DNA from: Mytilus edulis
Taxonomy: Eukaryota
Assembly: GCF_963676685.1 (NCBI RefSeq)
Contig: NC_092348.1
Location: 16,182,001-16,246,000, forward strand
Length of the DNA stretch: 64,000 nucleotides
Reading direction: 5' to 3'
The notes beneath the pieces are model-generated. The model did not search any database, had not been told where the DNA came from, and saw only the letters and a program-made list of their open reading frames with translations. How positions within the stretch are numbered: the first letter of the stretch is position 1; each line of letters starts with the position of its first letter. Below, in pieces: positions 1,422 through 60,239 of this stretch. Both the position numbers and the translations under genes were made by a program.

Positions 1422-4400
1422 TTTTGATTCTGGTGGATACAGCAACGCTGATGTTTGGATTGGTTATTATTTTAAAGACGTGTCAACAAAGGAATATGCT
1501 TGGATAAACGGTGAAAAATCTAGCTATGAAAACTGGAACCCTGATGACCCAGATTATAAAGAAGATTCTTGTGTTCGCTTAAAACAACGAGCTCAATATA
1601 AATTTGCTGATTGGGATTGTTTAGGAGAGTATTTTTACCTGTGTACAAGTAAGTATCAAAGACAATTCCGACCATTCGATCAAAAATGTAAATTACTTCC
1701 GCATTAGTGCATACTCTCAGATAACAATACAATCTTTTTGTTTCTTTCTTTTTTTTTTTTCATTATCAATGTTGAATTACCATGATAATTATTTGCTTCA
1801 GATGAATTATATTATCTTTATAGTCTTTATATATGAGCTCGAACAACAAAGTATACGATTACAAAATTGCTATTGCATGATGAGTTGACAGATAACAAAA
1901 TTGAGAATGGAAATGGAGAATGTTTCAAAAAGACAACAACTCGACCATAGAGTAGACAACAGCCGATGCATGTATTTGTTTTTTTTATACATTTAGGTGG
2001 CTCACCACCGGTAGTCGAAGATACAACAAACACAATAGTCACTACCTTAGGATCATCTGTATCGTTTGACTGTAGTTATACGTCGCTATGGGATGCAGTA
2101 GTACAATGGGTTCATATCACACCAAACCGAATAAGCATCATTAATGACACATTAGAACCGGTATTGTACAGTCAGTCACCACATTCCGTCGGAACAGTAA
2201 CCAAGAGTACATTACATATTACGAGTTTTAATTCATCTGATGTCGGTTCGTATCAATGTCAAGTGACCAATCAGTTTGGCACAGGGATGAGTAAGAACAA
2301 CACTCTGAAGAAACACAAAAGTGAGTTCATTTTCATTCTTACTTTGTATTGTATATTTTCAGAAGAGCTGACATATTTGGTTTTTTTTTTCTATGTTGTG
2401 GTTGGTATGCTGTTTATCTTTTGTTCTTTTATCTTTCATTTTGTCACGGATTTGTTAGTTACAGGGAGATAACTCTGTAAAGTCAGCTAAACGTTTTAAT
2501 TACGTTGTGTTGTAAAAGGAATATTAAGCTTCTCAATGATCACAATTGGTGTTTGTAAAACTGCTATTTAACCAGTGTAATTTTTCTGACAAAACGGTTC
2601 GTTCAAATTTTTTATATTTTTTTTTATTTTTATTTAAGGGTCAAAGTAAGTACTTTGACAAACTTTTATGAAAATTAAACGAGCCAAATTAATTTTAGTG
2701 CAAGTGTTGGGTACCACCTTAATATGAACATTAAATATTAATGCTTTAATCATCGCCAAAAAAGTTTTTTAAATGTTTTTTTCAGAAATCTCGTGTTGAA
2801 CCATTATCCTGTACATTAATAATGAATTATAGTTTAATAAACCTATTTTCCTCATTAGAAGATCTTAGAAGCAAAATCTATATCCATCAACGATATTTGC
2901 AGATTTTCTCTTTAGAGATGGAGATTACACTTGGCTTGAAGCTAAAGCTGGCTGCCAAACATTGAACATGGAGCTAGCTGTTTTGTCAACAACGATTGAT
3001 CACAACGATGCAGTCAACTATTTGTACAGGTAAATACACCTTGTTGGTTTTTTTTTAGGTATTTTGTACATGAATCTATTTTCGTTTTATACAAATGTGT
3101 TACTATCCCAATCTCTACAATAGTAAAACAAACTTGCTATTTTTCTGCGACTGACTTCTTTACTTCAGCACTCCAATATATTGACAACAATGTGTGAACA
3201 GAACACATAAAACAAAATATGACCTATAGTTGATAATTTATGAGTCACTTGGTCTCTGGTGGGGAGTTGTCTCATTGGCAATCATACCACATCTTCATGT
3301 TCATGGGTACAATAGTCAACTTTATGTTATAATCTTAATCAGTATAAAACAAATAACTATCCAAACAAGGAGAAAAAAGGCATATATACACTCTATAGTG
3401 AAACAAATCAGGTGAAATTTCCATTATACATTTCACTGTCCGCTTTTCAATCAAATTGACCATCTAATTACATATGTAGCAACTATTCGACATTTTTTAA
3501 AAAGGTTCTAGGTATTTCTACGGTTAGTTTATCCTGGCTCAAAATAACTGTTAATTATTGCAATCTTTGGTACAAATACTAGGATAATGGGTCGGAATAT
3601 CAAAATATGTGTTAAAATGTATGGCATACGTCTATCAGTCCTAAATGCTTTCAATGTGCTAGTTCACACGATTGATGTCCACACTTTTTTTCCGGGAATA
3701 TTAGTCTGATTCCGAATAGAACCTTCTTTGCTCTACATCATATATATTTTGCATGCTAGGAAGCTAATCAACACGTTCCAACTTCCATTGCTATGGTATT
3801 ACCCGACTATGAATCAAAGTGACTAACTCCCGCAAGCGAGTCGAGCACGCTAAAAGAATTACCGATGCGGTTTCTGAAAAGTACAAGTAACTAGAAATGT
3901 TTATGATTTTTTTTTTTGGAACTTATATTTGCAGTAACAATTTAAACCCTAATGGAATATGGATTGGACTATATAGCGATTTAGATAACAATGCAAGTCA
4001 GTTTATTTGGATAAATGGAGTTCGGGTAATGTCTCTAGATTTGGCTGTCAATGAACCTGACAATGAACAGATCAGAAATCAATCCACATGTGTTCGCATG
4101 AAACCTAGCTCCCAATACGCACTTGACGATGTTAAATGTACAGACACATCACCTTATTTGTGTACGGGTGAGTTCAATTTTTGTGAGAGTATTCTATGTT
4201 TATTTTTTTAACAAAAGTAAGTTCAATGCATTTAAAGGAAATAAACATTAGTCGCAACAGATTAGTTGTGAAATAAAAATATCAAGGAGGATGTTCACGT
4301 CTGATTGCAATCTACATACTGTGCAGTCGTTTCGCTTACAAATATTTTACAATGAGACATTATATTCTGTCGTATTTGAATTACATTCGGGATCCTATGG

Positions 4401-15900: not shown

Positions 15901-18703
15901 CGTAATTTCTTTTTAGATATACTCATCATATATACCAGGATTGAAATTAAACAAGATTAGACGTAGTTGTTTCTTAGTTAATTAATCAAGATAAATTAAA
16001 GACATTATATGGGATATGTATTCATCTTCTCAATTATAATCTTTCTCAATTTGTTATCAAATATCTTGTCCTCGAGGTCCTTAACTTTAATGCGTATTTG
16101 GTGCAGTAGCATTGGTACTGTTGATGTTATAACATTTATTATTGGTATATTATTTTTTTTTCTATATAAGCAAACTTACTATACTTCATCATATTCAAAT
16201 TTATTAACTAATTTCATTATTTCATTATTATTATATTTCTAGCTCCTGTATCCAACTATCTTGGTGAAAAATATACATATAGAGTGGTGATAGGGATAGG
16301 AAGCTGTTTAGTACTGATAGGTCAGACTGCAAGTGCGTTTGTGCCTAAATTAGAATTCCTTTACATCACCTACGGAATAATAACAGGTAAATTATATTTC
16401 TTTTCTTTGTTTCCAAATTTTAAATTAGGATTTGAAGGCAAAACTATAAAATCACACTTTATTATTATATGTGCATGCCATTAAGATAGGGTTGTATAGG
16501 TCTAACAGCATAAATATACATACATAAAGCCCCGCATTTTTAAATTGTTGAAATTGTTATCATTTTCTTAGGAGGTAGCATTTAAACATATGTGACATCT
16601 TAGTAAATCTGCTTCCACTTTGTCCAGCCACATAGCCCCATTACTTTAATAGTTTACAATTGCCTTATATGTTTTCCGTAGAGTTAATCTAATTATACAT
16701 TTTTTACACAATTTATGGTTTCTCTAGGAGTGCCAATTTGCATTAAACAAAACTTGGTTAACTTTGTAATTTCATTATCTATTTTATAGGAATGGGATAT
16801 GGATTAATCTTTGGTCCGTGCTCTACTATACTGAGTTTTTATTTTGACAAAAAGCGGGGTTTAGCAACAGGAATAATGGCATCGTGTAGTGGTATAGGCA
16901 ATATGTGCTTTCCGTATATGTACAAGTATTTGATAGAAAATTACGGTCTGCCAGGAACTATTTTAATAGCTGGAGCAGTTTATTTCCATGTTTGTCCTGT
17001 TAGCATGTTTCTTAGACAACCAATATATGTGACAAGGCAAATAGTAGAAAGGCAAGCACGACAAAAGGAGACGCAAAAATGTGGAGCGTTAAAACGAATA
17101 TTTAGATTCGATCTTTTCAAAAATTCGAAATTTAGTGTCTATATAACGGCAATATGCTTACAAGCTACAAATACTACATCAAATAAAGTTATTTTACCAG
17201 GCTATATTCGAGGTCTGGGTTTTGGTATTGAAACCATAACACTAGCAGTTTCTTTATATGGTGCTTCGGAACTTGTAGGGAGAATATTATTGGGATGGTT
17301 TGCAGATAAAAATGTTGTATCTAGAATAACCATATTTATGATATGCTCTTTTATATGTGATATCACAGCGTTTTGCATGCCTCACTTACCATACAAGCCG
17401 GCTGTAATAGCTTATGCCGTTGTTATAGGAGCTTTTTCTGGATCAATTTGGGGTTTAAACCAAGTAATCATAATTGACTGTGTTGGGCTAAAACATTTGT
17501 CTCCAGCATTTGGTTTGTTGTCGATGAGTATCGGTATAATTATATGTATAAGCAAACCAATAGCCGGTAAGTTAATATAAGTATAACTGTCCTGGTCCTG
17601 CATTTGTCTACGTTTTTTTTGTAATGTTTATTTACAGAATTCAGTATCATTGGTGAATAATAGTGATTCAACTTAACTATTTATTCAAACCATTTGTAAT
17701 TTTACGAAGACAACTTCATGCTTGGCAAAGTCTTCTATTACAAATGTTTTGCGATTCATAATGCCTGGCAATCTTACTGGAATATCAGGAATAGAGGAAG
17801 AGTCGATGTATGCACAAGACAAATTAGTAGCTTCCATCAAAAGCTATCGACTAGACGGTGCAGTATACAAACCCAAAACGTTATGATAATGTTTGGTTCA
17901 GGCAGAAGTCACTTTCTATTCAATCTATAACCAGTTAACTTTTAAGAAGAAGAGTTAAATAACATGCAAATACAATGCATGTTTGTTGGTTTGAATGTAC
18001 AAGTTGAAATATCATCATTTACCAATACTACATTTTTTACTTAAATTTCCAAATAGATATATGAAAAAAGTACAATTAAACACCCTATTCAAAAACACAA
18101 GCAACAGTAAAAACAATGTTTTACAGAACATTAAAGATTGAGTAACACTAAACAAATCAAAACCAGGATAAAGTCATGATTCCCGGAAGCGATGCAGTTC
18201 CGTCACAACAATAAACACATATCGCCTTGTTCATGGCAATTAAATACTCCGAGATATGTCGAAAATATCACAACCTAGAAAAAGGGAATGTTGATCATAT
18301 CCTTGAGTATATGTGACACAGACATTCCATCGCGCATAACAAAATTACGATGTCGAAATGCTTTCATTTAATAGTCTTATATTTTATCTTATATTGTCGA
18401 CTGATTTGAATATTTTTAAATTGTTTTTCTGGTCTCATTTATGTTTTTCAAAATAATATTGTTTCAGTTGATGAAAGGTTTTGTTTACTTTACATAGGTT
18501 TGCTGGAAGATGCAACTGGGTCTTGGACTTCATCATTTTATTTCGTTGGTATTCTTAGTGCACTTGCTGTTGTATTATGCTTACTGGAACGTCCGATTTC
18601 ACATATCTGGTGCTGTCATCGAATAGTAGCAGACGACATCATTGATGTTTCCCGCGATATTGTCGATAAGTCCATTCCTGTGGCTTATAAATTTAACGGA
18701 TAG
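12917..18703 (+). CDS. SLC16/monocarboxylate transporter family MFS protein, 487 aa. Exons 12917-13109, 15698-15841, 16243-16386, 16790-17566, 18498-18703
   Basis: TM1 motif DKGYAW, SVKSFG, SLC16 signature YFDKKRGLATGI, TM8 ELVGR, GLLEDATGSW; all introns are phase-1 GT-AG and the total is 1464 nt in frame. Confidence 0.9.
13960..14196 (+). repeat. Short interspersed repeat (intronic)
   Basis: Reverse-complement relatives near 7260-7480 and 25070-25210 share the GACAACGCCATGGC motif. Confidence 0.55.
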
Positions 18704-25200: not shown

Positions 25201-26794
25201 AAGCAAAACGAACAGTTATTTTTTTTAGTCAGTATTTTTTTGACATTGGATTGCGTCTGACAATATATATCCCTTGAGGTGAATTTAGTGATAATTCAAA
25301 TACAACTAATCAGGGTTTTTTATTGTCCAAAGCAACTACTTCATTTTAGGGTCGAGCTACCCATTTAGTTTTTTGTTGCTAGTTTTGTAAACTTGTATCT
25401 TGTATCACCCCATGGCATCTCTTTGTTTTGATTTTATCCGGTTGTATCAGAAAATAGTAAAATCACAAAAATACTGAATCAAATGACAAAATCAAAAGTT
25501 CAAACACATCAAAGTAGGGATAACAACTGTCTTATTCCTGATTTGGTACAGGCATTTCTTATGTAGAAAATAAAAATGGCAGATTAAACCTGGTTGTATA
25601 AATTACAGAGAACATTTTTGAGATGGCCGATGATACCGGACTCATACCTATACAGCAATCAATTCCATCCGACCTACAAGACAAAGTTACTGCAATATCC
25701 GATATATGTTCAAAAACTGCAGGTAAATTATATATTTCTTTTCAATTAAAATGTTCAAGTTAATACTGTTTCAATCATGTTAGATCATGTAAAAATTTGA
25801 AAACTAAACTTATATAATTAGCCCACAGTATTACTCCTACTTTAAAACAGTGTCAAATTATTTCTCACACGGAATTTCAAATACTGAAACTGAATCAAGT
25901 GTGCTATGGGTAATATTTTCAAAGTGTACATGGTTGGCTAATAATGCCTTTCAAATTGGAAAAAGGAACTAAATAATGATATGACGTTATTTTCAAATTT
26001 GGATACACGAGCAGCGAAATTACCTAGGCATTAAGATTCTGAAGTAGCCAGTTATAAATAATATAACCTCTTGTCAATTATTTTATTGTGGTCATATTTC
26101 TGACAAAAAGTATGATATCAAATACTTATATGCAGTATTTTTAATCGAGTGTATTTTTTATATCTACCAGGTCTTCCAGATGCCTTGGATGACAATAAGA
26201 AAAGATGGCTTGTTGTTGGTATATGTCTCCACTCAGTGATCTCACCTACACTGCGAACGTTTATTACTCCGGTTCTTGACACCTTATATAACTCACTTGT
26301 AGTTTCAGATAACATTGATAAGCAAACATATAGTACTCATTTGAAGAAATATATACCAACTAAAACTAATTTGAATTATGAGGCTATTAACACCAACAGT
26401 ACTAAGCTTGTAAGAAACGTTAAGCAGTACATGCAGTATGACTACAGAGTCTACAATGCTGTTGATTTATCCAAACTATTTGTACAGACGTTTATGGCTC
26501 ATTACACAGCGATCGACGATTCTTGTGATTCATCAGCTTTGCTAGGAATCATCATAAATATTTTACCAAGTCTACAATCTACTGCTAAAAAGGCAAGTAT
26601 AAAATAAGCCTATATTTTGATAAGCATATTTTCGTACAAACTTTAGAAGATAATTTTTGAAATGACCCCAATGAAATATAGTTTCAATTGTTAAAACACC
26701 AAATGTGCAATAAAATTGATTAATAAAAAAAGAAATTGTCACAAACTATATTCTCCTTTTTGATACTTTGCAAAAGTGTAGCTTATATCAGGCT

Positions 26795-27100
26795 TTAATC
26801 CCGCTGCAAATGTTTGCACCTGTCCTAAGTCAGGAATCTGATGTACAGTAGTTGTCGTTTGTTTATGTAATATATACGTGTTTCTCGTTTCTCGTTTTGT
26901 TTATATAGATTAGACCGTTGGTTTTCCCGTTTGAATGGTTTTACACTAGTAATTTTGGGGCCCTTTATAGCTTGTTGTTCGGTGTGAGCTAAGGCTCCGT
27001 GTTGAAGGCCGTACTTTAACCTATAATGGTTTACTTTTTAAATTGTTATTTGTATGGAGAGTTGTCTCATTGGCACTCACACCACATCTTCCTATATCTA
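26795..27100 (+). repeat. Short interspersed repeat, also at 54540-54727
   Basis: Shared CGTTGGTTTTCCCGTTTGAATGG...TGTCTCATTGGCACTCAC...CATCTTCCTATATCT. Confidence 0.7.
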
Positions 27101-27677
27101 TTTAAAAAATATATCACTAAAAATTATTGGTCATCAAGCTTGATAAGAATTAATTAAATTTTGTTAAAAAGATATGGGAAAACACTTTTGTTTGAATAGA
27201 CAGGAAACTTAATTTTAAGATGAATTATGAGGAGATGGCTGTTAACATGTTAGCTCACAGTACTGATTTTCTTGCTTCAAAACAAAAATTAAAATAATAC
27301 ACGAGTTTATAAATCAAATTATTATTTAATTATTGCCCTTTTTAAACAATTTTTTTTCTTCGAAATGGAACCAAACAAAAAAAGTATGTATTTGTAAAAG
27401 CAGTTGATTATATATCAAATTATTAGTTTCTTTTAATGTCAGATAGTTCAACCATATGAATTGCGGCAGTACTTCCATTTTGCGCCAATTTGCATTTCAT
27501 TTGCCCAAAAAAATCTTTCATTGCACTGCAATTATATTTCATTTGCGCCTTGTATATAAAAATAAAGATCATTTGCGCCAATATTAAAGATTCTAAAGGT
27601 TAATCCTATTAAGAATAGATTTATTCAAAAGATACTTTTAATAATAACTTTTTACCCAAGTTTTGTTCATACCGCAC

Positions 27678-40437: not shown

Positions 40438-43400
40438 TAATAATGGATTTACTCCACTGCATTTCGCTTCTCTTGGAAATTCCGATGATATAGTTAGGCT
40501 ATTACTGAAAAGAGGTGTTGATGTTAACCATCAAACAGCTGTACAAGGTAATACATCTTTGCACCTTGCATGCACATGGAGAGATGTGGTATTTCAAAGA
40601 AACACAAATGTCACAATTTCATTATGTGACAATAATGGGAAATCGTTTGAAGTTGGTGTTTCCAAATTTAGTTCACCTTTTCCAACACATGTCTGTTATG
40701 ACACTCATGGTATTCATCAATCTATCGTGCGGTTGTTATTAGAATACCAGGCTGATGTTTCATTATGTAACTATAAAGGACAAACGCCGTTACATATTGC
40801 TTGCGAAAGTGGTGATTACTATGTTGTCAAAGTGTTGGTAGAAATTAATGCAGACATAACCGTGTGCGACAACGACGGAAATACTCCACTTGATCTTGCA
40901 TGTCAACGAGAACACACAGATGTCGTGACATTGTTACTCTACAGTATAACAAATATATCACAGTTAGATAATGATGGAAAGACTGCATTTCATTCAGCAT
41001 GTAAGGGTTATGGAAACAGGAAAAAAGATGTTGGATGGTTCTTTGGCAATCCTTGGCAGCGTCCAACCGATAATGATATTGAAGCACACAAATCTGTCAT
41101 CGAGATTTTGCGCCATAAAAAAGCAGACGTAAATAAACGTAATAAACATGGAGAAACACCTTTACATACAGCTTGTGAATATGGTCCTATTGATATTGTA
41201 AAGATTCTTCTAAATGAAGGTGCAGATATATCACTATGTGACATGAAAGGTCAGTCTATCGTGTATAAGACATGTGCTGGAGGAAATAGTAGAATATTAA
41301 ATATTTTGCTTCAAAGAAATGCCAACTTTTTAAAATGCGACAATGATGGAAACTCGGCACTGCATGTAACGTGCAAAAACAGAGGTAAAGTGCAAAAGAA
41401 ATGGCCCCCGGGTAATCTGAAGCGTAAATTACCATGCAAATTATCTTCGACCTCAAAGTTTGAATTTGAAGAACTTTCGATATACATAGCAGATGAGTTT
41501 GAATGTGTTTTAAAAATACTTGTCGATCAAAACGTAGACCTGAACATAAGAAATAACTGTCAACAAACACCACTCCATATTGCAACTGAAGGTGGTCATT
41601 TACCTCTGGTTAACATGCTTGTTGAACGAAATGTTGATGTTAATATGTGTGACAACAACGGAAAATCACCATTATATTTGGCATGTGAAATGAGACATAT
41701 AGATATTGTTAAAATTTTATTGTTACATAATGCCAACATGCATTTAGTAGATAACAACAAACGGTCTCCGTTTCATGCTGTTTGCAACGGGTTGAGTCTT
41801 CCACCAACTGAAATAGAAATTCAAAGTGTACGAGATTTAGTTTCACTTCTAATAGACTATAAAGGAGATCTTTCTCACCCTGACAATGACGGTAAAATAC
41901 CATTACACTTTGCTTGTAAAGTCGGTTGTCTTGCTATTGTCGAATCGTTGGCAGTAAAGAAAGCACACTTTACTGTATGTGATTCAAATGGCCAGACGCC
42001 ATTAGATGAAGCCAAAAAAGCAGGACATTGGGACACTGTGCGTTTTCTTGAAAACTTTGAAGATGACACGAGTAAAAATTACAATCCGTTTTATTTTCTG
42101 TGGTGAAAATCTGAATCTATTTGCGACATTTTTTTAGTTGTCAATCGCGTTTTTTTTTCTGATATACTAGTACCTGGGGATTTCGAAGTAAAGTTTTGTA
42201 CTGCATTATTCAAACAAGACTTGTGATCTTATCTTGTTAACATACATTTGAGATAATGAAAAGTCCCAAAATAAACACTGTCAATTACTATTCTATACTT
42301 ATTAAAGTTTTATAAATCCTGGTGAAACAAGATTACTTTTTTTCCTTCGCCAATATGAAAACAGAAATATGTTTAAATAATGTGTAAGAATTTTTTTTCC
42401 AATTTCAACGCCTTATCTAATATAAATTTAATTTTCTATCAAAACTGGAGTCAGTACGGCGATAACTGAAACTCCCCGTAATCAAAGATCAAAAAGGTGA
42501 TAAAGAAAAAGAACTAAGGTGTTAACAGCTCGGAGCATTGACTGCTCAATTTCCCAATGTAAAATATATAACTTGCATATCATAGATAACCGTACGAAAA
42601 TAAGATTTTATGAAAACCGAAACTTTGTGATTACGAAAAAGGTATTAATAAACATTCCGAATTCCAAAGTAAAGTTAATCCATGCAGATATTTGAAAGCC
42701 AGGGGTTCTTAAAACCCGAAAGAATTTAATAGCTTTATGATTAAAAGGGACTGTTAAATAGTAGTCAAATTCATCAAAGGTGTGTGAGGGAGTTGAAACC
42801 TTAGCTTATTGATAATCTATAAAATCTGACAAAAACCAAATGCTCGTCTTAATCAACCTACAAAACAGTTGGAAAACAGAAGTGATATTCCTGACTTGGT
42901 ACAGGCATTTTCAAGGGAATGGTAGACTAAACATGGTTGTATTGCTAGATAACCTTCCGTTGGTTATAGTTTTGACATGTAAAAACAATTGTGGTATTAC
43001 CCAAACAGACATTAAAGGGTAATGTGACAATAGTTTGGATCCAACAGATATTCAAAACACATCACATGTGATAATTTTCATTCGTCCGAAACGTTTTTCT
43101 GGATTTACTTTTATCAGGAACGATCAAAGCTAAGTATGTAAAAGAACCGAAGCAATTGAAGAGCTGTTTAATAAAATTAAAAAAAAAAAAGGACCGAATC
43201 GCGGCTAATTCCATCTAAGGATAATATTTGCTGATTGAGTTTAAACCTTAAATTTAATTAAAAATGAATCAATAGACAACTTCAGAAAGGTTTGTTATAA
43301 ATCAAGTCTTTTTTCGAATTACTGACTTCTAAGCTGGTGATACTCTCGTGGACTGAAGTCGGCCAGCCGAAGTATTGACCCTGAAAACACAAATTGGTAA

Positions 43401-52582: not shown

Positions 52583-54113
52583 TACTTACTTAGTCCTTGC
52601 TATGCCTTATGGCACATAGGGCAAGGACAATCATTAGAGTTTTTGCGTATAACATGACAAAGCCACCTCCAGCTTTTTTATATCGGCAAAGTCTCCATGT
52701 CCTTGGTGCTGGTCATCTCATGTAGGTCTTTGTTGGATATTTTGTTTGGCCAGAATATTTTCATTATTTTCCTCAGACATCTGTTATAGTAGCTGGAGAG
52801 CCTGTTGATATCTTTCTCAGTCATTCTCCGGCTCTCTGAGCCATATAGGGGTACAGAAAGAATACAGCTGTTATAGAGCCTGATATTGATCTTCTTTGAA
52901 AAGGCTGTTGTTTTCCAGATGTTGCCTAGTCTAATGAATGCGGATCTAGCTTTTCCTATTCTGATCTTTATATCTCTTTCAGCACCACTTTCTGTTATTA
53001 TACAACTGCCTAGATAAATAAATGAATCTACTGTTTCCAGCTGTTTTCCTTCTATAAATATGATAGGATGTCTTTCTGTATTGAGGAACACTAGCTTTGT
53101 CTTTTTGGCATTGATCTTAAGTCCAATCATTTTAGCTGTTTCTTCTAGCTTTTTGGTCTTCTCTTTCATATGGTCATTGGTATGGGATAAAAGTGCTAAA
53201 TCATCAGCATAGTCTGTGTCCTGTGGTACAAAGTGTCCATCTCAATCCATTGTTACCTTCTGCTGGGGTTGTTCTCATTACCCAATCAATAGCAATTATG
53301 AACAGCACAGATGACATAAGACATCCTTGTCTTACTCCTGATTTTACAAGGAAACTAGTGTCAGCTTCATAGTTGATGGTTCTTGAGAAATTTGTATAGA
53401 ACTGCTTGATGAGATGCACTATCTTACCTGGTATTCCATAGTTTCTCAGAACTACCCGAAAGACTTTCCCGGTGTAAGCTGTCAAACGCTTTCTCGAAGT
53501 CCACAAAATTTACTAGTAGATTTCTCTGCAACTCATGACACTGTTCTCAGTTGTTACATAGGACCAATATGTGGTCTATGCAGCCTCTACCTTTTCTGAA
53601 ACGCGCTTGTTCTTGTCATAATTTCTTATCAACAGCCTCTATAATTCTTGATATTAAAATTATGCAGAAGACCTTACTTGGAATGGATAGTAAGGTGATT
53701 CCTCTCCAAATATTGCAGTATGTTAAGTCTCCTGATTTTGGTATTGTTATGATGTTGCCTTCAGACCAACTGTTAGGAATAACAGCTTGCTCCCATATTT
53801 TCTTGAATACTGGGTGTACAGTATCTGCTGCTAGCACTGTATCTATCTTAAAAAGTTCTGCATTTAGTTGGTCTATGCCAGGTGACTTTTTGTTTTTCAA
53901 GCTTTTAATGGCTGCCTGTATTTCTTGTTTTGAAGGTGGATCTGTGTCTATTTCAAGGTCTAAGGGTGCCTCAGGGAAAATTGCTAGATTATCTGGTTCT
54001 TTTCTATTAAGATCATCTTGAAAATGTTCCTTCCATCTCAAATATTGATCTCGCTCTGTTGTTAGCATATCGTTGTTTTTGTATTGGCATATCAATTTTA
54101 GCTTTTTTATCAT
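52583..54113 (-). mobile_element. 5'-truncated, frameshifted RTE-clade LINE
   Basis: KSPGIDQL, WRGITLLS, GVRQGC, YADDLALLSH (about 53185-53212), F-x-YLGS, RIGKARSAF; (TAAG)n 3' tail at 52583-52593. Confidence 0.85.
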
Positions 54114-58095: not shown

Positions 58096-59559
58096 TCACT
58101 TTAGAGTTTGGTAGTCATAAATTCTTAAACATTTAGAATCAGCAATCCATAATTGACCCTCTCTATATGCAATGGCTGCTGGTGAACTAAGACCATCCTT
58201 TTTATCAATGAGAATTTTTCGAAACTGTAACTTTCCATCCAATTGATATATTGCATTAAACTGCATATCGCTTGCTAATATGTTGCCGTCGTTATCGTAG
58301 CAAAGTCCTTTGCAGACGTATTGTAAGTACGGGCTTTGGCCAGATTTACCAGAGAAGGTATATGCATTTTTTGGTTCGAGGCTATAGGAATAAACATAGT
58401 TCCGTATTCCAGTGGTTTGTTCTACGTCATATATTATGCTAAAATTGTTACTCGAGTGCACCGACATGCAAGAACTCTCACTTTTACTATTTGCCAGCGT
58501 GAATGATTTCTTTTTTATTCCGTTGGACTCAAAGACTGTCATTTGTCTTGAATCCTTATTACTCATCCATATGAAAACAGAGTTGTCTGACTTCGCGTAA
58601 TCCATACATAACGGCATGTACGGATCTGTACTTGTGAAAGGCGTCACATTACCTCTTGCGTCAATTTGATTAATAAAGCTTTTTGTTCTATTAAGGACTA
58701 ACAAATCTCCATTATTCAGAACAGCAATGTCGTCCGCTTCTTCAGAATAAACTGCCATCTGTATTCCAGAGAAGTCAAGACGGAATAATTTCCTATCTGA
58801 AATAAGCCATGCGTCAGATCTGTTAACTGGGATAATTTTCGTGACCGGAACTACCAGATCTGCAAGAGGAATCAATGTCACGAGACCTTTCTTATCTACT
58901 TCCGCCATAGTGTTGTCGTCTGATAAAAGCTCATGAATATTGTATGTTTGTGTAGATATATCATACGTCTTTCTCGTACCACAATCTTCTCCAATACAAC
59001 CTAATAATCTGTCACCAGACGGCGCATTCAGCTGTATTAATAATGGTGCGTCCTTGTTATATTTTGACTTTAAACATTCTTTGTTAATAGAACATTTTTT
59101 CAAGCTACAGTATAACCTTATAAGTGAATCCTCTGATGCAGGATTTTCCATTTCATTTTCACAAAACTTAACCTCATCCACAAGGCTATGAATCTGATTC
59201 CTGCTTACCTCAAATACTTCCTTTGAAGTCTTCAATAGATCCTTAGCTTCTATCTCAATCTTGTTCTTCCACCGCATTTCACATCTGTGGATATCATGTT
59301 CTACTTTTGCCTCGTCTTGAACATTTTTTTCATTCGCTTCTTCTAACTGCTTTTTAGTTTCTGCAAGATCATGTTGAGTTGCTAATTTATTATCTGAGCA
59401 CCAATAATTCACCTTGTTCCTAATAATGTCTTGTGATTCAAATAATCCTTTGACCTTATGCTGTTGATGATTCTCTAACAAACACTGAACACATATGATA
59501 TCTTCACATTCTTTACAAAAGAGGCGCAATTGTTCATCTTGGTGTTGTGAGCAGTTCAT
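58096..59559 (-). CDS. RING-less TRIM-like protein: B-box2, coiled coil, NHL-type beta-propeller, 487 aa, single coding exon
   Basis: CSQH...LFCKECEDIICVQC...HQQH; heptad region; propeller motifs GLCYDNDGNILASD and DGLSSPAAIA. AAAATG start with an upstream in-frame TAA; 5'UTR acceptor at 59617-59618. Confidence 0.9.
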   Translation of the reverse strand: MNCSQHQDEQLRLFCKECEDIICVQCLLENHQQHKVKGLFESQDIIRNKVNYWCSDNKLATQHDLAETKKQLEEANEKNVQDEAKVEHDIHRCEMRWKNKIEIEAKDLLKTSKEVFEVSRNQIHSLVDEVKFCENEMENPASEDSLIRLYCSLKKCSINKECLKSKYNKDAPLLIQLNAPSGDRLLGCIGEDCGTRKTYDISTQTYNIHELLSDDNTMAEVDKKGLVTLIPLADLVVPVTKIIPVNRSDAWLISDRKLFRLDFSGIQMAVYSEEADDIAVLNNGDLLVLNRTKSFINQIDARGNVTPFTSTDPYMPLCMDYAKSDNSVFIWMSNKDSRQMTVFESNGIKKKSFTLANSKSESSCMSVHSSNNFSIIYDVEQTTGIRNYVYSYSLEPKNAYTFSGKSGQSPYLQYVCKGLCYDNDGNILASDMQFNAIYQLDGKLQFRKILIDKKDGLSSPAAIAYREGQLWIADSKCLRIYDYQTLK

Positions 59560-60239
59560 TTTTATTTAAATGAATAACTTCTTTATGCAGGCATTGTTTT
59601 TTTCAATATCTTGAATCTTAAAATAGAAAAACAATTACCTATATACATAAAATATCAGAAAAAAATCAAAGCAAAACTCTTGAAATGCAAAAAAAAATGT
59701 AAATTTATTTTTTAATAATTTTTGCCTAAAAACTTATTAAGTTAAATGTGTTACGATTGTAAGAAAAAGTTGTGCTAAAACTTCGAGTAAATGTAAAAGA
59801 ACTTTTTAAAACAGAACTAAGTTTAATCGATTGTAATGTTGAAAGATTTGAAATGTTTACTATTTCTGAGACAAATTAATATACAGGTAGTGATAAAAAT
59901 GAATCAATAAGAAGTATAATACCACTGCAATCTAAAAATTCCACACCTGAGAAATATGAAGATAACAGCGTATTTGTTCCTGCTTTATAGAATTTGTGAT
60001 ATTCGGCGAATTACATTTGCACGCATCACTATTACATGTAAAGCACGTAGCAACATAACTTTTGCGTGCTGCCTTTGATTACATTCGAGTGCATTTATTT
60101 TGCAGGTAAAAACAGATAAATCATACTAATATATTTTCAAATGAAACAAATTCGAATTTTAAAGGTTCACATTTTACATCGGTACGTGCTAAATATTTGA
60201 AACTGAATTCTGTAAATGTTAACTGATTTTCTCTTCTTT

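What the first reader, a model, noticed from the sequence alone, without database searches (positions are those of the whole stretch)
40441..42106. Ankyrin super-repeat: every third repeat carries a long variable loop
In the C-terminal array, repeats starting LHLAC, FHSAC, LHVTC and FHAVC each have an insertion between the two helices. The inserts are TWRDVV..HGI, KGYGNRKKDVGWFFGNPWQRPTDNDIEA, KNRGKVQKKWPPG..ADE and NGLSLPPTEIEIQS, and each such repeat is separated from the next by exactly two canonical 33-aa repeats. A shorter insert (SNIETKDD) sits just before the transposon. The loops differ in length and sequence, so they could act as specificity-determining loops on a fixed scaffold.
Basis: partly seen in the sequence, partly recalled or inferred. 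Interest (0 to 1): 0.7.

Follow-up and report, generated by a model that had tools for sequence, protein, structure and literature searches.

The report
Mussel immune receptor with variable loops
This mussel gene, broken in this copy by a jumping DNA element, carries four long extra loops spaced every third unit along its ankyrin-repeat tail; close relatives carry such loops at the same spot with very different sequences, so the loops likely help decide what each of these probable immune sensors recognises, though that is untested.

Summary
Confirmed: four inserts (+44, +25, +38, +11 aa) lie between the two helices of repeats 2, 5, 8 and 11; the short fifth insert is out of phase. They are coding, not introns. 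The array ends a Mytilus gene (RNxxxH domain, coiled region, nSTAND3 NTPase, 23 ankyrin repeats), split here by a 2,297-bp transposon that other individuals lack. The loops mark a subfamily: 12 of 19 closest paralogues carry an aromatic-rich insert at this site, mostly in the penultimate repeat, versus 0 of 21 more distant ones. Loops diverge twice as fast as scaffold between two coexisting gene types (55% vs 27%), carry most replacement polymorphism (10N:1S vs 4N:8S) and appear swapped between paralogues. Against: dN/dS above 1 is not significant, loops are as conserved as scaffold within type B, helix-helix inserts and super-repeats are known for ankyrins, and no ligand is known. Best reading: specificity loops of NLR-like receptors (0.5); rival: tolerated, relaxed insertions (0.3). 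This scan noted the receptor family before on other DNA of this genome; the notes I saw did not mention the loops.

The parts
25623..25723 (+). Exon 1 (start codon; ends approximate)
   Evidence: tblastn of P0241 residues 1-34, 97% identical
26170..26592 (+). Exon 2: N-terminal helical domain, first part (ends approximate; donor reads GC)
   Evidence: tblastn of P0241 34-177, 80%; junction letters; no Pfam HEPN hit
29207..29377 (+). Exon 3 with the RNPWAH (Rx4H, HEPN-like) motif at 29222-29239
34519..34835 (+). Exon 4: charged, probably coiled-coil linker (ends approximate)
   Evidence: tblastn of P0241 231-339; coiled-coil is inferred from the sequence
35698..38140 (+). Exon 5, 5' part: nSTAND3 NTPase (Walker A at 35814-35837) and 10 ankyrin repeats
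   Evidence: PF20720 E 8e-15; repeat parse; contigs of X10 and X17 start matching at the acceptor, 35696
38061..38081 (+). Short (+5 aa) helix1-helix2 insert, shared in position with L014, L015, P0130
38141..40437 (.). 2,297-bp DNA transposon with TAG...CTA ends, imperfect terminal inverted repeats and a TAA target duplication; breaks the reading frame of this allele
   Evidence: 27-nt inverted repeat; at least 40 copies starting at the same boundary; empty site in 3 of 4 runs and in P0001/P0241
40441..42106 (+). Exon 5, 3' part: 13 ankyrin repeats in a period-3 pattern, stop at 42104-42106
40577..40714 (+). Loop in repeat 2 (+44 aa); contains an ankyrin-finger-like remnant; predicted beta-hairpin at low confidence; largely conserved within each type
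41006..41086 (+). Loop in repeat 5 (+25 aa); flanking helices predicted extended; replaced by unalignable sequence in type B
41378..41497 (+). Loop in repeat 8 (+38 aa); fastest-changing loop (10/40 vs P0241, 26/38 vs P0002)
41789..41827 (+). Loop in repeat 11 (+11 aa); predicted to extend helix 2

Best explanation
The array is the C-terminal ankyrin domain of a mussel gene with an nSTAND3 NTPase that is likely an NLR-like intracellular immune receptor, and its four long helix1-helix2 inserts likely act as ligand-specificity loops on a repeated three-repeat unit. Shown: gene structure, coding inserts, period 3, subfamily-wide inserts of different length and sequence, faster change in loops than in scaffold, and a transposon-broken allele here. 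Predicted: each insert extends one or both flanking helices into a hairpin with a flexible tip at the rim of the ankyrin groove, and the two plain repeats between loops would give each loop room and a groove floor. Inferred: ligand binding would release the NTPase, which would oligomerise and switch on the N-terminal HEPN-like domain. Most paralogues carry one loop in the penultimate repeat; this lineage multiplied the loop-bearing unit to four. New loops would arise by rapid change and module exchange after duplication and then be held by selection.
For: Trait tied to a clade: 12 of 19 closest own-genome paralogues (11 of the 18 in the tree clade, SH-aLRT 99, plus L020) have a long insert at this site, against 0 of 21 more distant loci by my reading of the parse. 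Eighteen inserts are 13-46 aa, 14.3% aromatic vs 5.8% in scaffold and 9.7% in the NTPase, unlike ordinary linkers (own knowledge). Window vs type B: loops 55% vs scaffold 27% different, p=4e-8. Allelic differences from 8 runs: loops 10N:1S, scaffold 4N:8S, p=0.009; without window-private sites 7N:0S vs 2N:6S, p=0.007. L013 vs L022: loop dN 0.37, dS 0.24; scaffold dN 0.09, dS 0.19. Loop more divergent than scaffold in 11 of 12 hand-picked pairs, e.g. L013/P0254 (NTPase 95% identical, loop 16/38 different) and L022/P0251 (90%, 18/38 vs 15/156). Signs of module exchange: L013/L022 NTPase 62% but terminal scaffold 87% identical; L011/P0258 NTPase 67% but loop 19/20 identical. Loops are conserved among type-B orthologues, which pure drift does not explain. 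Period 3 recurs in nSTAND3-ankyrin proteins outside the clade (P0026, P0027, P0057). The inter-helix region is enriched in binding residues in solved ankyrin complexes (PMC4687027, passages).
Against: No test shows dN/dS above 1: allelic loop pN 0.034 vs overall pS 0.024, p=0.49; L013/L022 p=0.06-0.09. Loops are no more variable than scaffold among type-B orthologues, and less variable between P0241 and P0121 (5/113 vs 36/364). Helix-helix inserts are a known tolerated site (PMC4687027, PMC7314423) and occurred in 64 of 155 non-redundant ankyrin proteins in my sample, where spacing 3 was not enriched (5 of 36 gaps vs 3.0 expected, p=0.17). The three long loop cores have pLDDT under 50, as does the paralogue loop, so their position is not modelled. 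A classifier trained on paralogue insert-bearing repeats did not recognise window repeats 2 and 5, so common descent of all loops is not shown. The N-terminal domain has no Pfam HEPN hit. No ligand or immune function is tested.
Confidence: 0.5

Rival explanations
1. Tolerated passengers: an insertion arose at a permissive turn, was copied when a three-repeat block duplicated, and has since drifted under relaxed constraint. Specificity would sit in the ordinary ankyrin groove.
For: The site is a known insertion hot spot and multi-repeat duplication units are known (PMC4687027, PMC7314423). Same-phase repeats resemble each other. Loop cores are predicted at low confidence. Loop pN is indistinguishable from pS. 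Loop 2 includes an ankyrin-like remnant.
Against: Loops are as conserved as scaffold among type-B orthologues of californianus, coruscus and a Logan protein. Loop lengths are fixed within a type. Loops are aromatic-rich. The insert is kept in 12 of 19 paralogues at one position, and period 3 recurs in separate lineages.
Confidence: 0.3
2. Structural or regulatory role in cis: the inserts form extended helical hairpins that kink the solenoid or contact the NTPase or other subunits (autoinhibition, oligomer contacts), like the extended central helices of tankyrase ankyrin clusters.
For: The models extend the helices flanking the inserts (H188-206, H216-231, H463-478; H142-158). The conserved Ala of TPLHxA is replaced in 10 of 14 insert-bearing repeats vs 9 of 145 plain ones. 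Tankyrase precedent (PMC4687027 passage). Conservation within type B.
Against: A cis contact would be expected to follow the NTPase lineage, yet near-identical NTPases carry loops 42-47% different and different NTPases share a loop.
Confidence: 0.15
3. Artefact: the inserts are short in-frame introns, or decay products of a pseudogene.
For: This allele is broken by a transposon and has 8 differences not seen in the other runs.
Against: Contigs that start at the exon-5 acceptor and skip the transposon run through all four inserts with no joint there (X17 record 8, X10 records 2 and 7; RNA status is the tool's guess). Intact proteins of M. galloprovincialis and M. californianus have all four inserts.
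Confidence: 0.03

Closest known systems
Bivalve HEPN/STAND/repeat NLR-like proteins (pearl oyster DZIP3-HEPN + NACHT + LRR/TPR/WD40, PMC9646362 passages; oyster TRADD-N proteins with STAND, HEPN and ankyrin domains, PMC8195603 passages)
   Same: Effector-NTPase-repeat layout, Rx4H motif, large expanded family, copy differences between haplotypes
   Different: nSTAND3 instead of NACHT; ankyrin sensor; the N-terminal domain misses the Pfam DZIP3-HEPN model; long variable inter-helix loops were not mentioned in the passages read
Ankyrin repeat insertions and super-repeats in general (PMC4687027, PMC7314423; passages)
   Same: Insert site between the two helices; periodic multi-repeat units
   Different: Those papers find inserts over 5 aa rare and spread evenly along arrays; here they are 11-44 aa, periodic, clade-specific and fast-evolving
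Fungal NLRs with ANK/WD40/TPR sensors (PMC13449251, passages)
   Same: STAND NTPase plus repeat sensor, repeat exchange between paralogues
   Different: Fungal diversity sits in a few hypervariable positions of near-identical repeats; here repeats are divergent and diversity is concentrated in long inserts
Lamprey VLR LRRCT variable region (PMC11878203, passage) - analogy only
   Same: A highly variable segment near the C-terminal cap of a solenoid that is implicated in binding
   Different: LRR not ankyrin, extracellular, somatically assembled; no homology and no somatic diversification shown here
Tankyrase ankyrin repeat clusters (PMC4687027 passage; 5jhq)
   Same: Periodic repeats with helices extended by insertions
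   Different: Tankyrase units are conserved and about five repeats long (recalled); no SAM or PARP domain here; the database label 'tankyrase' on P0241 is not supported

Membership tests
Ankyrin repeat proteins | 33-aa helix-turn-helix repeats stacking into a solenoid | tested here: met
   Pfam Ank_2 E 8e-74; model and PDB matches to ankyrin solenoids
NLR-like STAND receptors | Central STAND NTPase with Walker A and B | tested here: met
   PF20720 nSTAND3 E 8e-15; GSSGSGKS and VFVIDD motifs
NLR-like STAND receptors | C-terminal repeat sensor | tested here: met
   23 ankyrin repeats in this allele, 10 + 13
NLR-like STAND receptors | N-terminal effector domain | tested here: inconclusive
   RNPWAH-type motif in 10 of 15 clade proteins; no Pfam family for the domain
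NLR-like STAND receptors | Ligand-triggered oligomerisation and immune output | not testable with these tools
   needs experiments
NLR in the strict sense (NACHT + LRR) | NACHT domain and LRR sensor | tested here: not met
   NACHT only E 0.04, below cut-off; no LRR family hit
DZIP3/hRUL138-like HEPN (PF18738) | Match to the family profile | tested here: not met
   No hit for P0241 or exons 2 and 3 at E up to 1, while paralogue P0256 hits at 1e-29; profile-profile probability 1.9%, motif region only
HEPN superfamily | Rx4-6H motif | tested here: met
   RNPWAH at 29222-29239; a motif alone does not prove fold or RNase activity
Specificity (CDR/LRRCT-like) loops | Faster amino-acid change than the scaffold | tested here: met
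   not met within type B
Specificity (CDR/LRRCT-like) loops | dN/dS significantly above 1 | tested here: inconclusive
   1.5 for L013/L022 (p 0.06-0.09); 1.4 for alleles (p 0.49)
Specificity (CDR/LRRCT-like) loops | Direct contact with ligand | not testable with these tools
   no ligand known
Tankyrase | ARC clusters plus SAM and PARP domains | tested here: not met
   no SAM or PARP among the 22 Pfam families listed for P0241
Academ-type DNA transposon (name and features recalled, from no call) | TAG...CTA ends with a 3-4 bp target duplication | tested here: met
   ends and TAA duplication; no ORF of 150 aa or more inside; superfamily not confirmed by any database

The most novel reading that the evidence does not exclude
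Mussels have an intracellular receptor repertoire in which nSTAND3-ankyrin proteins carry antibody-CDR3-like or VLR-LRRCT-like loops grafted into the ankyrin helix turn. The loops are exchanged between paralogues as modules and multiplied in three-repeat units into multivalent sensors. The two types of this gene (A and B) may be ancient alleles or dispensable copies with different specificities: a natural, selected 'loop-ankyrin' binder library.
Probability: 0.35. Interest if true: 0.75.

Novelty: new variant of a known kind. Interest (0 to 1): 0.5.

Why it matters
Bivalves have hundreds of NLR-like genes with unknown ligands. A discrete, swappable, fast-changing loop tells experimenters where specificity probably lies and makes the question testable by loop swaps between close paralogues such as L013 and L022. 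It would also be a natural precedent for long loops at the ankyrin helix turn, of use to designers of ankyrin-based binders. If the loops are passengers, this is an ordinary member of a known expanded family.

Tried and rejected
Introns: rejected. Close DNA paralogues in the own genome: none, only 3 short ankyrin matches. Type B is not in this assembly by a 69-aa protein search (2 matches: the window and L014; 150 of 1,557 candidates scored). A general rule that ankyrin inserts are spaced by three: not supported in 155 non-redundant proteins. Common descent of all inserted repeats: classifier inconclusive. Homologues of loop 2: 6 hits among 1.84 billion representatives, one the M. edulis protein; two others checked (P0362, P0364) are weak matches to unrelated repeats, probably chance; three not checked. 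ESM Atlas with P0002 residues 940-1030 gave generic ankyrin clusters only. PDB fold search gave generic ankyrin solenoids. DZIP3-HEPN membership: not met. Hidden frameshifted loop modules close behind the 7 clade ORFs without an insert: none found in the fetched DNA, though a module-like match with a stop lies just beyond the stretch fetched for L012. dN/dS for most paralogue pairs is meaningless because loops do not align (17 pairs printed, one clearly alignable). One Fisher table had a mistyped count and was redone. No DNA of other species' orthologues was available, so no cross-species codon test. Literature searches found no description of these loops; the library lacks most subscription journals and no supplements were read. 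Look-ups of earlier scan findings by words and by sequence returned nothing.

Full report
Setting. The window is G000:C5:16182001-16246000 of a 1.37-Gb genome. The array is 97% identical to a Mytilus edulis protein, P0001. tblastn with the full-length M. galloprovincialis protein P0241 shows a five-exon gene from 25623 to 42106: an N-terminal helical domain with RNPWAH, a charged linker, an nSTAND3 NTPase and 23 ankyrin repeats. The last exon is split by a 2,297-bp element (38141-40437) with TAG...CTA ends, a TAA duplication and inner inverted repeats. It has at least 40 copies in the genome. Contigs of 3 of 4 runs skip exactly 2,300 nt there; the fourth does not cover the site. So this allele is broken and intact alleles exist.

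Observation. A two-block parser puts +44, +25, +38 and +11 residues between helix 1 and helix 2 of repeats 2, 5, 8 and 11 of 13, and +5 in the last repeat before the transposon. The long inserts are three repeats apart (chance 0.006); the short one is two before the first. Same-phase scaffolds are more alike (p=0.0004), which fits duplication of a three-repeat unit but may partly reflect closeness to consensus. Contigs whose match begins at the exon-5 acceptor run through all inserts without a joint (RNA status is the tool's guess), and intact proteins from two other species have all four. They are coding. AlphaFold (8 sequences, mean pLDDT 72) keeps one solenoid, extends the helices beside the inserts and leaves the three long loop cores under pLDDT 50. 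A paralogue's terminal module gives the same picture. I had no coordinates, so the position of the loops at the groove rim rests on my knowledge of the fold, as does the point that DARPin variable positions lie just before this turn; PMC5593856 (passages) confirms six randomised positions but not where they are.

Orthologues and alleles. Seven relatives fall into type A (P0001, P0241, P0244, P0121; 86-97%) and type B (P0002, P0017, P0122; 63-66%). Loops keep their positions in both. Window vs P0002: 55% of loop residues differ vs 27% of scaffold (p=4e-8); vs P0241 17% vs 10% (p=0.04). Within type B, loops are not more variable than scaffold (three pairs, p 0.23-0.84), and between P0241 and P0121 they are less variable. 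A B-like contig, about 82-85% identical on the scaffold with loop 5 replaced by 101 unalignable letters, occurs beside type A in 3 of 4 runs but was not found in this assembly. It is a dispensable paralogue or a deep allele; I could not tell which. Among type-A contigs of 8 runs, 23 variable sites split into loops 10N:1S and scaffold 4N:8S (p=0.009); loop pN 0.034, scaffold pN 0.004, overall pS 0.024. The tables were cut: by the per-contig counts about two type-A sites are missing, and I left out differences on the divergent contigs. Removing the 8 sites private to this broken allele leaves 7N:0S vs 2N:6S (p=0.007). Loops thus change at about the neutral rate or a little above; positive selection is not shown.

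Family. A search with the post-NTPase region scored 150 of 406 candidates; 19 paralogues stand above a score gap. I fetched these and 21 more distant loci, chosen from the next ranks. Long inter-helix inserts occur in 12 of 19 and 0 of 21; four long gaps among the distant loci were read by me as hidden repeats. A quick tree of the NTPase region (61 rows; L020 and P0021 dropped; SH-aLRT only) places the window's gene with L014, L015 and P0130 (99), which share the short insert and mostly period-3 inserts, inside a 34-row clade (99) where most others have one insert in the penultimate repeat. This is one or a few origins, not 12 independent events. Other Mytilus species add many more terminal loops. 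The 18 own-genome inserts measured are 13-46 aa, 14% aromatic and 16% basic. In 11 of 12 hand-picked pairs the loop differs more than the neighbouring scaffold (6 at p under 0.05; the reverse pair also at p 0.03), and two pairs show NTPase and terminal module with different histories, which suggests exchange (gene-model chimeras are not excluded). The one well-alignable DNA pair gives loop dN/dS 1.5 vs scaffold 0.46, not significant.

How special is it? Inserts at this turn are known (PMC4687027, PMC7314423; passages). In my sample 100 of 4,162 repeats in 64 of 155 non-redundant proteins had one, with no general excess of spacing 3. Within nSTAND3-ankyrin proteins, however, 8 of 9 gaps in five proteins equal 3, and 4 of 5 in three proteins outside the window's clade (p=8e-5). 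These were picked after looking, with P0021, P0069, P0258, L007, L014 and redundant proteins left out, so the p-value is optimistic. L014 has a gap of 4.

Mechanism. I commit to specificity loops at 0.5. The architecture matches effector-STAND-repeat receptors described in oysters and fungi (PMC9646362, PMC8195603, PMC13449251; passages). The loops combine conservation within a type with near-complete turnover between types and paralogues, an aromatic-rich make-up and apparent module exchange, which is what binding determinants under episodic selection would show. Steps from ligand binding to NTPase oligomerisation to a HEPN-like RNase output are inferred; the N-terminal domain has only the motif. 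Relaxed, tolerated insertions (0.3) and a cis-structural role (0.15) remain open.

Novelty. The receptor type is known, and this scan has noted the family on other DNA of this genome. Seven literature searches showed no account of the loops. PMC11878203 was read as passages for the VLR analogy; PMC8260672 was seen only as a listing. No supplements were read. Verdict: real, new variant of a known kind, interest 0.5.

Noticed in passing
window 40711-41454 (read laying): A second, B-type version of the gene occurs beside type A in runs X7, X8 and X11 (about equal depth in X8) but was not found in this assembly. Its contigs end at 41454 and downstream variants are much closer to type A, which suggests conversion or recombination between types.
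   Followed up: partly
window 26590-26598: The exon 2 donor reads AAG|GCAAGT (GC-AG type or mutated), and exon 2 lacks three codons present in P0241.
   Followed up: no
window 38960-39190 and 39640-39705: Inside the transposon lie two short, very high-copy repeats (contig depth in the hundreds to thousands), probably nested elements.
   Followed up: no
window 36207-38136 vs 40441-42106: The window allele differs from the three well-covered runs at 1 shared site before the transposon but at 12 after it, which hints at a recombinant haplotype.
   Followed up: partly
L007 (G000:C14:63119000-63127400): The terminal loop module is duplicated, with two related but diverged loops in one ORF: a possible intermediate on the way to multi-loop arrays.
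   Followed up: partly
L013 and L022 (G000:C14, about 70.36-70.53 Mb): Paralogues in this clade can carry different N-terminal domains (P0256 has Pfam DZIP3-HEPN; P0250 has the RNPWAH type) yet share a related 38-aa Trp/Pro/Cys-rich loop.
   Followed up: partly
proteins P0271, P0096: Ankyrin proteins from metagenomes (P0271 with PF07525) also carry 7 inter-helix inserts each, several three or four repeats apart.
   Followed up: no
proteins P0057, P0085, P0091: Distant nSTAND3-ankyrin proteins have two inserts three repeats apart, with flanks resembling the window's repeat 5 and variable loop cores.
   Followed up: partly
L020, L014: L020 is frameshifted and L014 has a stop inside the post-NTPase region; several clade ORFs (L010, L012, L019) end without a cap. 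Turnover in the family looks high.
   Followed up: partly
window 58096-59565 (-), 16762-17580 (+), 1951-2472 (+), 52678-54113 (-): Other coding stretches: B-box/NHL (TRIM-like) ORF, MFS transporter exon, Ig I-set exon, and what look like non-LTR retrotransposon reverse-transcriptase fragments (read by eye).
   Followed up: no
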